Source of the DNA: a virus
Taxonomy: Duplodnaviria > Heunggongvirae > Uroviricota > Caudoviricetes
IMG/VR virus record: IMGVR_UViG_2534681993_000021
Coordinates: 1-8,847 of that record
Direction: 5' to 3' (one strand)
DNA: 8,847 bases
Both the position numbers and the translations under genes were made by a program. The notes under the pieces were generated by a model. That model worked only from the letters and a program-made list of their open reading frames with translations. It made no database searches and was not told the origin of the DNA. Below are positions 4,221-6,996 of the stretch, in pieces. Every line of letters starts with the position of its first letter. Position 1 is the stretch's first letter.

Positions 4221-6512
4221 TTAAAAATCAGCCTGACTCGGGATCAGTTTTTGCCAGATAGCTGAAACGTATTTTGCCTGGTAACGGGCGTCATCAAGTG
4301 CATTGTGGCGCTCACCTTCGAATGGGATAGCTGTTCTGGCATCGAAGTCTATGGCTTTCCCTAGCTCAACGATTGTGCGTACATCGCGATCGTTGTGGTA
4401 GTGCCAGGGGCAGGGGATCCCCTGCCGTTCGTATGAACGGCGTAAAATCACGTTGTCGAAGTTGGCTCCATTTCCCCAGACCTGAACAAAAAATTCACCG
4501 GAGTTTTCGGCGATAAATTCCCGCAATTGCAGTAGTGCATCATCTAACGGGATTTCATCGGTCAGAATGGCAGACTGCGCTTCACGTGATTGCTTCAGCC
4601 ACCATTTAATGACGTCACGATCAATAACTCCGCCAGCAGTATCCAGATCGATGGTCTTGCTAAATTCCGGTCCCATATCTCCGGTTTGTGGATCGAAAAA
4701 TATTGCGCCTATTGAGATAATCGCGGCATTGGGATTTTTTCCCATGGTTTCAATGTCGATCATCAGATGAATCCCCGCTCTGCTGGTGGATGTGAGATTG
4801 TGATGACCATTCACCTTAATTAAGGGATCTGCCGCCTCGCCAGTTTCACTATCGCTGGCGTGATGCTGATTGCCGCCAGTGTTCTCCTTGTGTGGATGTT
4901 CAGCGCCTTCCATTTCCTCCGGATCATTCTCCTGAGCTTCAACCTGATTCTCTTCATCGAATGTTTCCTGGTATGTTGCGTTGCCCATGACAGCGCCACA
5001 ATCGGGGCAGTTGCCGCCACCGCTCTGACCGCAGGCGGTGCAGACTTTTTCCGGTTCCTGTTGCACTACTGGTTCGGATTGTTTCGTTTCTGGCTCGTTT
5101 TGTAACGCATTTGGGCTGTTTTGTTCCGCTTTCTGGTCGTTCTGTTCCGTTTCTTGCTGGTTCTGATTCACTGAATCGCGGGTTTCAATCTCCTTCACCC
5201 ATTTCGGATCATTCGGGTCGCTAATCCCTGCAACAAATTCACCACGTGATACAGCAAGCAACTTATCGGCGTCAGGCTGGCTGATATTGGCTGCCTGCAT
5301 AATTTTGTTTACTTCGTCAGCGGTAACTTTTACCGGCTCCGGTTGTGCGATCGTGTCAGATGCACCAGTATTTTGTTGTGAACCTGAGTATGTACCGTTT
5401 TTGCGGGCAAAATATTCTTCTTTCGTGATTTCAGTAGCCCCTGCAGCCAGCGCCTTATTCAGACCAGAAAGTTTGTTTGCACGACCGTATTTTTCGCCAT
5501 CCTTGTCGCTGAAGAGGAAGTAGAACGGCCCCTCACGCTCTACAGATGATTCGACTTCCACTTTGCATTCGGTTTTTTCGTTGTCCTGAATTGCCGTTTC
5601 CACTGCATCAGTTTCTGGTACTGGCGACGAGAGAGTATCAGTTGCGCTCTGATTTCTTCCTTCATCTTCAAACACGCCCTTTGTAGTCAGGTATTCAGTA
5701 ATGTATTTGTTCAGTGCCACAGGGTCTTTGTGAATGTCGATCGGACGTTCACGGACAAGGCCAAAAATAGTCTGGCGGCTGTAGCGAAGCGCATCAGGTT
5801 GTTTGCGCATTGATGCGGAGATGCGCTTCCAGTCTTCGCGATCTCTGGCGATAACTTCATTTTTAGCCCAGCGAAGGATGCTGCCGTCAATGTTTCCGGC
5901 ATCCGCATCACCAGGCCAGAGATAGTAGGCCAGCTCCCTGTCCAGGGTTTTCCATGTCTGCTTGTATTCGCGATGAATGGCGGCAGTTACAGGAGGGATT
6001 TTTTCTGCTGGGTTTTCAGTGTGCTGTCGGTTGGCTTTGGCGCGGGCAAGATCAACAACAGACGTGTATTTTCCAGTCTCTTTGCGCTCTGCGTCCTGCC
6101 GTTTTTTCCAGTTACGTAATTCAGCCTGAATTTCGGGCCATTTGGTACCCGGCTTACATTTGTGTTTAACCCATCCGATAGCGAACAGTTTGCGTTCCGG
6201 ATACATAGCGTTAATTTCAGGCGTTTTCATCAGTGCTTCAACGATATGTCCGTCAAAGGTAGCCACGTCTTCTTGCAGTAATTCCTGCGCGTCAATCGCC
6301 ATATCAACGGTGATGTTTTCACATGTACCGAACTTAACCAGGACCGCGTTCTGTACTTCAAGGGACAGCTTGTCAAAATTGACGTTAATAGGATCGGATT
6401 CTGGTTCGACCGGAATAAAGGAAGCGGATTCCTCATCCCAGCGGTTTTCCTGCATATATTCGGTATCCCAGGAGTCGATAGCAGGGCGGGGCATTCCAGC
6501 GTTTTTCTGCAT
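4221..6512 (-). CDS. Large early-left protein with C-terminal DEDDh (DnaQ-like) 3'-5' exonuclease domain; likely exodeoxyribonuclease VIII (RecE) family N-terminal region
   Basis: The ORF track gives 819 aa from 6680. Exo motifs: DIE (D642, E644; nt 4749-4757), GANFD (D742), HNALDD (H792, D797). Zinc ribbon C547-x2-C550-x7-C558-x2-C561 (nt 4998-5042) sits in an acidic Q/N/E-rich linker. The first ~56 codons overlap the upstream gene and are Cys/Trp-rich, so I place the start at ATG 6510-6512; ATG 6453-6455 is an alternative. Confidence 0.8.
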   Translation of the reverse strand: MQKNAGMPRPAIDSWDTEYMQENRWDEESASFIPVEPESDPINVNFDKLSLEVQNAVLVKFGTCENITVDMAIDAQELLQEDVATFDGHIVEALMKTPEINAMYPERKLFAIGWVKHKCKPGTKWPEIQAELRNWKKRQDAERKETGKYTSVVDLARAKANRQHTENPAEKIPPVTAAIHREYKQTWKTLDRELAYYLWPGDADAGNIDGSILRWAKNEVIARDREDWKRISASMRKQPDALRYSRQTIFGLVRERPIDIHKDPVALNKYITEYLTTKGVFEDEGRNQSATDTLSSPVPETDAVETAIQDNEKTECKVEVESSVEREGPFYFLFSDKDGEKYGRANKLSGLNKALAAGATEITKEEYFARKNGTYSGSQQNTGASDTIAQPEPVKVTADEVNKIMQAANISQPDADKLLAVSRGEFVAGISDPNDPKWVKEIETRDSVNQNQQETEQNDQKAEQNSPNALQNEPETKQSEPVVQQEPEKVCTACGQSGGGNCPDCGAVMGNATYQETFDEENQVEAQENDPEEMEGAEHPHKENTGGNQHHASDSETGEAADPLIKVNGHHNLTSTSRAGIHLMIDIETMGKNPNAAIISIGAIFFDPQTGDMGPEFSKTIDLDTAGGVIDRDVIKWWLKQSREAQSAILTDEIPLDDALLQLREFIAENSGEFFVQVWGNGANFDNVILRRSYERQGIPCPWHYHNDRDVRTIVELGKAIDFDARTAIPFEGERHNALDDARYQAKYVSAIWQKLIPSQADF

Positions 6513-6996
6513 CCCAGTCTTTCTCAAGGCCTGATACCATGAAGAAACCGTTAGTGTTGCCATCAAATAATTCTGTTTCCAAATTTTTAAGCAATGCCTG
6601 ATGGACTCTTGCCAGGTATTCCGCCGGAATTTCGCCACGAATTCTGATGAGATTGTCATAAACAAACATGTTCCCCGCATATGGCGATTTTTCTTTCTTG
6701 TTTTTTAAACCAGCATCATGAGCAAACTGATCAATTTCTTCTTCCGTTGGTTTCGTATTGATGTTTTGCGCTGTCGTTTCTGCAATTTTATTTGCCACAC
6801 TCTCTGAGTCGTGTTTATTTATAGACGCACAGAAATACAATCCGGTAAACGCATCGCGCACATTACGAGCCATATTATCAGTGTCTTTTTTCGTTACCGA
6901 TTCCAATTCAAGTTCGTTCAGACGATGACGAAGTGTGTGTGCTGCAATCTCCTGGATTGAAGGAGGTAAATCTTTAAATTCCATCGTCAACCTCAT
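6433..6996 (-). CDS. Hypothetical early-left protein (183-187 aa)
   Basis: Protein-like composition throughout. The first ATG (6994-6996) overlaps the upstream stop by 1 nt (TGATG). The second ATG (6982-6984) has GAGG 6 nt upstream. No family recognised. The 3' end overlaps the exonuclease ORF in another frame. Confidence 0.6.
   Translation of the reverse strand: MRLTMEFKDLPPSIQEIAAHTLRHRLNELELESVTKKDTDNMARNVRDAFTGLYFCASINKHDSESVANKIAETTAQNINTKPTEEEIDQFAHDAGLKNKKEKSPYAGNMFVYDNLIRIRGEIPAEYLARVHQALLKNLETELFDGNTNGFFMVSGLEKDWDAEKRWNAPPCYRLLGYRIYAGKPLG

What the first reader, a model, noticed from the sequence alone, without database searches (positions are those of the whole stretch)
6433..6996. 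Early-left operon lacks a recognisable RecT/Bet/Erf partner; the 183-aa protein is unassigned
The whole operon between repressor and int is inside the window (YdfA-like, 183-aa protein, exonuclease, xis, int). None of these looks like a canonical single-strand annealing protein that usually pairs with a phage exonuclease. The 183-aa protein occupies the slot where kil, gam or anti-restriction genes often sit, so it is a candidate for an uncharacterised host-interaction function.
Basis: inference. Interest (0 to 1): 0.5.

Follow-up and report, generated by a model that had tools for sequence, protein, structure and literature searches.

The report
Deletion-truncated prophage gene remnant
The "183-aa protein" is the first 164 residues of a 212-residue prophage protein of unknown function, cut short by a 1.6-kb deletion that also removed the cell-division inhibitors DicF and DicB and the start of the exonuclease gene, so it is an ordinary gene remnant and not a new host-interaction factor.

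Summary
The ORF is real (6433-6984, minus strand, 183 aa; 187 aa from the upstream ATG), and no RecT/Bet/Erf-type protein is encoded in the operon. The operon is not intact, though. The window is one whole draft contig (AJVW01000030.1). It matches prophages in complete E. coli genomes at 99.9-100% identity, apart from a 1,594-bp deletion whose ends share only ATG (window 6492-6494).

Intact relatives read: repressor, ydfA-like, 212-aa protein (Ybl81 / phrog_2151), a convergent 69-aa ORF, dicF, dicB, DUF1482 (ydfD-like), an 823-aa exonuclease, xis, int. The deletion joins codon 164 of the 212-aa gene, out of frame, to codon 67 of the exonuclease gene. The product is therefore 164 native residues plus 19 meaningless ones. 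It lacks a nearly invariant 48-residue C-terminus, which forms the last strand-helix-strand of a predicted alpha/beta domain.

The junction was found in no other public sequence searched.

The exonuclease is a DEDDh 3'-5' enzyme, not lambda Exo or RecE type, so no annealing partner is expected.

The intact family has no Pfam, NCBIfam, PADLOC, PDB-sequence or specific fold match.

Verdict: a decayed dicBF-type operon, of low interest.

The parts
6433..6984 (-). Chimeric 183-aa ORF (WP_000394547.1): 164 native residues of a Ybl81/phrog_2151-family protein plus 19 out-of-frame residues (APPCYRLLGYRIYAGKPLG)
6492..6984 (-). Native part of the 212-aa-family gene: 493 nt, 100% identical to L001 6267-6759. 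Encodes the N-terminal helical module and the first two thirds of the C-terminal alpha/beta domain
6433..6491 (-). Tail of the chimeric ORF: exonuclease-gene DNA read in the +1 frame, ending at TGA 6433-6435
6492..6494 (.). Deletion junction. ATG is shared by both parental sequences (3-nt perfect microhomology; imperfect AAAC[G]CTGG[A/C]ATG around it). 1,594 bp are missing relative to L001 6760-8353
4221..6494 (-). 5'-truncated exonuclease gene (codons 67-823 of the 823-aa family). Contains a region homologous to the middle of RecE, a CxxC...CxxC motif and a C-terminal DEDDh Rv2179c-like 3'-5' exonuclease domain. Native start and RBS are deleted. GenBank aa from ATG 6455; the mechanical 819-aa ORF from 6680 is a chance upstream extension through the other gene
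6996..7148 (-). ydfA-like gene (DUF1391), first gene of the operon
7229..7289 (.). Two 26-nt operator-like direct repeats, 35 nt apart, between the repressor gene and the ydfA-like gene (the position of dicBp in Qin). The operon's control region appears intact
   Evidence: position of dicBp from PMC10448788
7315..7722 (-). DicA-like HTH repressor
3900..4151 (-). Excisionase (DUF1233)
2585..3880 (-). Tyrosine integrase

Best explanation
The window carries a dicBF-type early-left operon of an EHEC lambdoid prophage that has suffered a 1,594-bp illegitimate (microhomology-mediated) deletion. The deletion joins codon 164 of a 212-codon accessory gene (Ybl81 / phrog_2151 family, function unknown) to codon 67 of the 823-codon DEDDh exonuclease gene, in the wrong frame. 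It removes the 3' end of the accessory gene, a convergent 69-aa ORF, the DicF sRNA gene, dicB, a DUF1482 (ydfD-like) gene, and the start and ribosome-binding site of the exonuclease gene.

Shown: the 183-aa ORF is a truncated chimera.

Inferred:
- The product is most likely inactive or unstable, because it lacks the last strand-helix-strand of its conserved C-terminal alpha/beta domain.
- The exonuclease is at best weakly expressed as an N-terminally shortened form.
- Loss of the two toxic cell-division inhibitors DicF and DicB may have been neutral or favoured in the lysogen.

No single-strand annealing protein is missing. This operon type never has one, and its exonuclease is a 3'-5' DEDDh enzyme.
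For: - Profile coverage: phrog_2151 has 212 positions and the window protein matches only 1-165. The exonuclease ORF matches phrog_2082 only from position 64. The intact proteins from L001 match both profiles end to end.
- Intact layouts in complete genomes: FWSEC0002, and CFSAN027343, which has the same NleC-DinI-int context.
- Sequence identity on both sides of the gap is 100% and 99.9%.
- DicF (RF00039, 77 bits) is found in L001 and not in the window.
- 286 of 5,426 complete E. coli genomes carry at least 80% of the intact stretch, and none carries the junction. The junction is also absent from GTDB representative genomes, IMG/VR and JGI metagenomes.
- The exact 183-aa protein occurs on one contig, which is the window itself.
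- The lost C-terminus is nearly invariant in 25 homologues. It is still conserved (A-x-W-x-F-S, AA-x-E) in relatives of 26-27% identity.
- AlphaFold models give a C-domain of strand-strand-helix-strand-strand-helix-strand. The break falls in the fourth strand.
- The exonuclease carries PF16473 at E=1.8e-66.
- DicB and DicF are toxic division inhibitors in the ydfABC-dicF-dicB-ydfD-ydfE operon (PMC10448788, PMC5069750).
Against: - The deletion is known from a single 2012 draft contig, and I could not inspect reads, so an assembly or sequencing artefact is not excluded.
- Inactivity of the truncated product is inferred, not shown. Its N-terminal helical module (about residues 1-90) is complete, and that module occurs on its own or with other C-termini in other phage proteins.
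- Selection for loss of dicBF is speculation. Many genomes keep several dicBF copies (PMC5069750).
Confidence: 0.85

Rival explanations
1. The junction is an assembly or sequencing artefact of the draft genome. The real strain has the intact operon, and the 183-aa ORF does not exist in vivo.
For: The junction and the exact protein occur only in this one 8,847-bp contig. EHEC genomes hold many near-identical lambdoid prophages (up to 14 matching places per genome), which makes short-read or 454 assembly difficult. Both contig ends lie in repeated phage genes.
Against: Assemblers join at long identical overlaps. Here the two parental sequences share only ATG (7 of 8 nt over CTGG[A/C]ATG), which is the signature of an illegitimate deletion rather than a repeat collapse. 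Both flanks come from the same prophage in their natural order and orientation.
Confidence: 0.1
2. The truncated protein is still functional through its intact N-terminal four-helix module, which acts as an independent host- or phage-interaction unit. The C-terminal domain would be dispensable or regulatory.
For: Residues 1-55/80 match four other PHROG families whose members are 64-139 aa or carry different C-termini. The exhaustive HMMER search finds many short proteins matching only residues 1-50/97. Stx phages encode a 147-aa relative of the module in their early-left region. The promoter/operator region and the ydfA-like gene upstream are intact.
Against: No function is known for any of these families. 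The truncated C-domain, with a 19-residue nonsense tail, is likely to misfold and target the protein for degradation (inference). The variant is unique to one contig, so there is no sign of selection.
Confidence: 0.1
3. The 183/212-aa protein is a cryptic single-strand annealing protein, Gam-like nuclease inhibitor or Kil-like division inhibitor that partners the exonuclease.
For: Only its position, between the immunity region and the exonuclease gene.
Confidence: 0.02
4. The out-of-frame overlap is a programmed +1 frameshift site that produces a fusion of the 164-residue fragment to the exonuclease.
For: The exonuclease frame is +1 relative to the ORF and overlaps it for 19 codons. The junction lies just after an A5 run (GAAAAAC).
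Against: The overlap was created by a one-off deletion. In all intact relatives the two genes are 1.2 kb apart, with other genes between them. No known +1 shift motif and no conservation.
Confidence: 0.01

Closest known systems
Ybl81 / PHROG phrog_2151 family (e.g. WP_000394548.1, 212 aa; 'hypothetical protein') of Escherichia/Salmonella lambdoid prophages
   Same: Residues 1-164 are 100% identical to WP_000394548.1 as encoded in L001. The position directly after the ydfA-like gene is the same. The phrog_2151 match has E=8.7e-111.
   Different: Lacks the last 48 residues (NVATWLFS...YAEHxPLWIxW), which are nearly invariant in the family, and carries 19 unrelated residues instead. The convergent 69-aa partner ORF (phrog_4274) is deleted.
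dicBF operon of the Qin cryptic prophage (ydfA-ydfB-ydfC-dicF-dicB-ydfD-ydfE) and its copies in CP-933/Sp prophages of EHEC (PMC5069750, PMC10448788)
   Same: DicA-like repressor and DicC/Cro-like gene, operator repeats, ydfA homologue first, YdfE-type exonuclease, then xis and int.
   Different: The 212-aa gene replaces ydfB/ydfC, with no detectable similarity to them. In the window, dicF, dicB and the ydfD-like gene are deleted.
RecE/RecT (Rac) and lambda Exo/Bet recombination modules
   Same: The exonuclease gene sits upstream of xis-int in the early-left operon. The middle of the protein (residues about 242-621 of the 819-aa ORF) is homologous to RecE residues 271-602 (NF007259, E=6e-85, below the family cut-off).
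   Different: The catalytic domain is DEDDh 3'-5' (PF16473), not the PD-(D/E)XK 5'-3' domain of RecE or lambda Exo. There is no RecT/Bet/Erf gene here or in intact relatives.
Relatives of 206-286 aa in P2-like prophages (P0148, P0157, P0164, P0166)
   Same: They share the C-terminal alpha/beta domain (26-40% identity) and a convergent 64-69-aa ORF at the 3' end. They lie just after the immunity/cox genes and upstream of Rv2179c-like and RecE-like genes.
   Different: Different N-terminal domain. One carries an inserted XRE-type HTH. The phage type is different.

Membership tests
Ybl81 / phrog_2151 | Significant full-length match to the 212-position profile | tested here: not met
   The window protein matches profile positions 1-165 only. 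Intact P0001 matches 1-212.
Ybl81 / phrog_2151 | N-terminal helical module starting MEFKDLP | tested here: met
   Identical to family members. Helices at 8-24, 32-55, 60-74 and 81-90 in the model.
Ybl81 / phrog_2151 | Complete C-terminal alpha/beta domain with the conserved NVATWLFS...LDVYSYIYAEHxPLWIxW end | tested here: not met
   Residues 165-212 are replaced by 19 out-of-frame residues. The last strand-helix-strand of the model is missing.
Single-strand annealing proteins (RecT/Red-beta, Erf, Rad52/Sak, Sak4) | Profile match to an SSAP family | tested here: not met
   No such hit in Pfam, PHROGs, NCBIfam or the PDB-sequence profile for the window protein or intact P0001.
Single-strand annealing proteins (RecT/Red-beta, Erf, Rad52/Sak, Sak4) | Rad52-like or RecA-like SSAP fold | tested here: not met
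Single-strand annealing proteins (RecT/Red-beta, Erf, Rad52/Sak, Sak4) | ssDNA annealing activity | not testable with these tools
   Needs biochemistry.
Gam / Kil / DicB-type host inhibitors | Homology to Gam, Kil or DicB | tested here: not met
   No hits. DicB is a separate 62-aa gene in intact relatives and is absent from the window.
dicBF operon | DicA/DicC-type immunity genes and a ydfA homologue at the operon start | tested here: met
   HTH_3 repressor, P22_Cro-like gene, DUF1391 at E=3e-29. Operator-like repeats.
dicBF operon | DicF sRNA gene | tested here: not met
   Rfam gathering-threshold scan: RF00039 found in L001 7455-7506, none in the window.
dicBF operon | dicB and ydfD (DUF1482) genes | tested here: not met
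   Present in L001, L002 and L009. The corresponding DNA lies inside the 1,594-bp gap.
Lambda Exo / RecE-type recombination exonuclease | PD-(D/E)XK (YqaJ / Exonuc_VIII) 5'-3' nuclease domain | tested here: not met
   Only PF16473 (Rv2179c-like) and a weak PF00929 (RNase_T) match, both DEDDh. The match to NF007259 covers only the non-catalytic region 271-602, at 286 bits against a cut-off of 1269.
Anti-phage defence systems (PADLOC) | Match to a known defence protein model | tested here: not met
   0 families for the window protein, intact P0001 and the 69-aa partner.

The most novel reading that the evidence does not exclude
The window's ORF is not the interesting object; the intact cassette it derives from might be. 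The cassette is a 206-286-aa protein with a conserved beta-beta-alpha-beta-beta-alpha-beta C-domain plus a convergent, abutting or overlapping 64-69-aa ORF (phrog_4274, C-terminal RRGPAGVxL). It is conserved at 26-52% identity between lambdoid dicBF-type prophages and P2-like prophages, always just downstream of the immunity switch and upstream of DEDDh / RecE-like nuclease genes. It could be an uncharacterised two-gene accessory module, for example for superinfection exclusion, anti-defence, or a toxin-antitoxin-like pair. The truncated 183-aa form might then be a natural loss-of-function allele, or might keep partial activity through its N-terminal module.
Probability: 0.2. Interest if true: 0.45.

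Novelty: already known. Interest (0 to 1): 0.12.

Why it matters
It matters mainly as a correction. An ORF that looks like an unassigned early-operon protein in an apparently complete operon is in fact the scar of a deletion, one that also removed dicF and dicB. Anyone cloning this ORF to test for toxicity or anti-restriction would be testing a truncated chimera. The apparent 'exonuclease without an annealing partner' is the normal state of dicBF/YdfE-type prophages, whose exonuclease is a 3'-5' DEDDh enzyme.

The only lead of wider interest is the intact 212-aa family and its conserved convergent small ORF, which remain uncharacterised.

Tried and rejected
- I first considered that a slip in GAAAAAC had split one long gene. 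Rejected: in intact relatives the two genes are separate, 1.2 kb apart, with four features between them.
- **Homology to YdfB/YdfC of Qin,** which occupy the same slot. None found by BLASTP.
- **Family and profile searches.** Pfam, NCBIfam and PADLOC scans of the window protein, the intact protein, the distant relatives and the small partner ORF gave nothing beyond an XRE HTH inserted in one relative.
- **PDB sequence-profile search.** Only E about 0.1 noise (Noc, RPA32).
- **Exhaustive HMMER over 1.84 billion representatives and a domain-profile search.** These found about 30 clusters, all Escherichia/Salmonella prophage proteins with no informative name. One hit, a 548-aa tandem-repeat protein (P0147), looks spurious.
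- **Fold searches** on the full model and on the C-domain alone gave only generic folds. 'Cysteine protease / YsxB-like' BFVD hits have TM 0.39-0.43, and the family has no conserved His/Cys pair. The afdb50 library was unavailable.
- **Literature.** Searches for 'ybl81', the WGS accession, and Rv2179c with prophage found nothing.
- **Junction searches** in E. coli complete genomes, GTDB representatives, IMG/VR and JGI metagenomes all returned zero.
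Full report
**What is at the coordinates**

The minus strand carries an ORF at 6433-6996 (187 aa from the first ATG). All homologues start at the second ATG (6984, MEFKDLP...), which has a GAGG 7 nt upstream. The real product is therefore the 183-aa protein that GenBank also annotates (WP_000394547.1 / EIL42479.1).

- DicA-like HTH repressor (7315-7722)
- DUF1391/YdfA-like gene (6996-7148)
- the ORF in question
- a large exonuclease ORF
- DUF1233 excisionase (3900-4151)
- integrase (2585-3880)

Across the switch lie a Cro/DicC-like gene and a YdaT-like gene. None of these proteins matches an SSAP, Gam or Kil family.

**The operon is not intact**

Two profile results did not fit an intact gene pair.
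- The ORF matches PHROG phrog_2151 (unknown function) at E=8.7e-111, but only positions 1-165 of a 212-position profile.
- The exonuclease ORF matches its 823-position profile (phrog_2082) only from position 64.

A megablast of 6300-7250 against 5,426 complete E. coli genomes gave a 100% match that stops at window 6492. A second set of matches, annotated 'exonuclease', starts at about 6507. No genome spans both.

The intact layout in E. coli O145:NM FWSEC0002 (L001) is: repressor, DUF1391, a 212-aa hypothetical protein (WP_000394548.1), a convergent 69-aa hypothetical protein, dicB, a DUF1482 protein, an 823-aa exonuclease, xis, int. Rfam finds DicF in L001 at 7455-7506 and nothing in the window.

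blastn of the window on L001 gives 8847-6492 = L001 4404-6759 at 100% and 6508-2533 = L001 8338-12313 at 99.9%.

Walking base by base:
- The 212-aa gene is identical for 493 nt, through window 6492.
- The exonuclease gene is identical from its nucleotide 199 (codon 67, an ATG), which is window 6494.
- The two parental sequences share only that ATG (imperfectly AAAC[G]CTGG[A/C]ATG).
- 1,594 bp are missing, which is not a multiple of three.

The ORF is therefore 164 native residues followed by 19 residues (APPCYRLLGYRIYAGKPLG) read from exonuclease DNA in the +1 frame.

The exonuclease has lost codons 1-66 together with its native start. The 819-aa ORF listed mechanically from 6680 is a chance upstream extension through the other gene's DNA. 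GenBank called 744 aa from ATG 6455.

**How unusual the junction is**

The window is the complete contig AJVW01000030.1 of draft assembly GCA_000264015.1, and the exact 183-aa protein is recorded on that contig only.

A 241-nt query across the junction is spanned by none of the 5,426 complete genomes. The exact 37-mer is absent from GTDB species representatives, IMG/VR and JGI metagenome contigs. In contrast, 286 complete genomes carry at least 80% of the intact 2.2-kb stretch from the 212-aa gene to the exonuclease start.

The closest complete genome with the same unusual left context (NleC and DinI of a neighbouring prophage abutting int; 11 genomes) has the intact operon, with identical protein accessions for int, xis, exonuclease, dicB and the 212-aa protein.

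A junction at a 3-nt microhomology, with both flanks from one prophage in their natural order, looks like a genuine illegitimate deletion rather than a repeat-collapse assembly error. I could not see reads, so I leave about 10% for an artefact.

**What the intact protein is**

The family is narrow.
- The indexed search found 156 proteins. The 120 listed are nearly all 208-214 aa and almost all from Escherichia (one cluster from Salmonella). They are named 'hypothetical protein' or 'Ybl81'.
- An exhaustive HMMER pass over 1.84 billion cluster representatives found only 30 clusters.

The 48 residues missing from the window protein are among the best conserved in the family: V165 A166 T167 W168 ... 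Y200 I201 Y202 A203 E204 H205 P207 L208 W209 I210 W212 are nearly invariant. Parts of this segment (A-x-W-x-F-S, AA-x-E) persist in relatives of 26-27% identity from P2-like prophages.

AlphaFold2 gives an N-terminal module of four helices (about 1-90) and a C-terminal domain of strand-strand-helix-strand-strand-helix-strand.
- Whole protein: pLDDT 68.
- C-domain alone: pLDDT 73, pTM 0.71.

The break falls in the fourth strand, so the last helix and strand are gone.

Nothing assigns a function:
- There is no Pfam, NCBIfam or PADLOC hit.
- There is no PDB sequence relative.
- A profile of the C-domain that included the distant relatives found no further families.

The N-terminal module alone matches four other PHROG families of unknown function and many short proteins. 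One is a 147-aa protein in the early-left region of Stx phages that do carry RecT, an exonuclease and an SSB.

**The 'missing SSAP'**

The exonuclease carries a C-terminal Rv2179c-like DEDDh 3'-5' domain (PF16473, E=1.8e-66) and not a lambda-Exo/RecE nuclease domain. Its middle region is homologous to the non-catalytic part of RecE (NF007259 positions 271-602, far below the family cut-off).

Intact copies of this operon in three complete genomes also have no SSAP. This is the dicBF operon type described for Qin (ydfABC-dicF-dicB-ydfD-ydfE). There DicB and DicF are the toxic division inhibitors, that is, the kil-equivalent functions (PMC5069750, PMC10448788).

**Most likely reading**

- Shown: the 183-aa ORF is a deletion-generated, out-of-frame chimera in a decayed dicBF-type operon.
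- Inferred: the product is inactive or unstable because a conserved part of a compact domain is missing.
- Inferred: the exonuclease is poorly translated, if at all, because its start and RBS are gone.
- Inferred: loss of dicF and dicB was neutral or advantageous to the lysogen.
- Supporting: independent frameshifted versions of the same gene occur in other strains (P0135, P0137, P0165), which fits ongoing decay of this accessory gene in resident prophages.

The main biological rival is that the intact N-terminal module keeps some activity. Nothing supports that beyond the module's modular distribution.

**Novelty and score**

The family, the operon type and the exonuclease are all catalogued, and the deletion is an ordinary event seen in one draft contig. 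I score interest at 0.12.

The one lead worth noting is outside the window. The intact C-domain protein is always followed by a convergent 64-69-aa ORF (phrog_4274), conserved at 44-52% identity between lambdoid and P2-like prophages. It is absent where ydfB/ydfC occupy the slot. That could be an uncharacterised two-gene accessory module.

Noticed in passing
L001 6906-7115 (-); L004 6851-7045 (-); L007 5611-5820 (-): A convergent 64-69-aa ORF (phrog_4274; conserved SGLLK...RRGPAGVxL) abuts or overlaps the 3' end of every intact member of the family examined, in lambdoid and in P2-like prophages (44-52% identity). It is not homologous to the antisense ORF in the ydfB/ydfC-type operon (L002). 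No Pfam, NCBIfam or PADLOC hit. It is deleted in the window.
   Followed up: partly
L004 3676-11802; L005; L007 2984-9379: Distant relatives of the C-terminal domain (206-286 aa) sit right after int, the C-type repressor and cox in P2-like prophages. A stand-alone Rv2179c-like exonuclease (190-193 aa) follows in L004 and L007, and a 738-758-aa Exonuc_VIII (RecE-like) protein follows in all three, without a RecT. The two nuclease elements in these loci are a stand-alone DEDDh domain and a RecE-like protein; the window's exonuclease combines a DEDDh domain with a RecE-like middle region in one protein.
   Followed up: partly
window 4221-6494 (-); zinc-ribbon-like motif about 4992-5108: The exonuclease is a mosaic: an N-terminal region, a RecE-middle-region homologue, an acidic/Q-rich linker with a CxxC...CxxC motif (VCTACGQSGGGNCPDCG), and a DEDDh domain. 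The gene call in the public collection lists a Pfam 'YdfE_C' (PF27432) hit that the local Pfam copy did not report.
   Followed up: no
window 1-2584: The DNA beyond int is not a bacterial attachment flank (rspB in L001). It is the right end of another prophage: tail-fibre C-terminus, the type III effector NleC (808-1794, Peptidase_M85, E=8e-113) and a DinI-like gene (about 2165-2407). Eleven complete genomes share this tandem-prophage junction.
   Followed up: partly
window 7229-7254, 7264-7289 and 7293-7323: Two 26-nt direct repeats (88% identical, 35 nt apart) lie where the DicA operators and dicBp would be. A perfect 13-bp-stem hairpin overlaps the end of the repressor gene. The strict sigma-70 scan found no consensus promoter here.
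   Followed up: partly
proteins P0135, P0137, P0165, P0060 (other strains): Other public sequences of the same gene are frameshifted, or fused to unrelated N- or C-terminal residues. This suggests repeated independent decay of this accessory gene in resident prophages.
   Followed up: no
window 6495-6680 (-): The exonuclease reading frame stays open for 186 nt upstream of the junction, inside the other gene's DNA. Mechanical ORF lists therefore show a spurious 819-aa protein whose first 62 residues are meaningless. The same alternative frame appears in the frameshifted proteins P0135 and P0137.
   Followed up: yes
protein P0147 (548 aa): A highly repetitive protein (about 10 tandem units, 'LTHLFPTWSFSNTHAIYSHT...') scored E=7.6e-10 against residues 166-208 of the family. 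It is probably a compositional or repeat artefact rather than homology.
   Followed up: no
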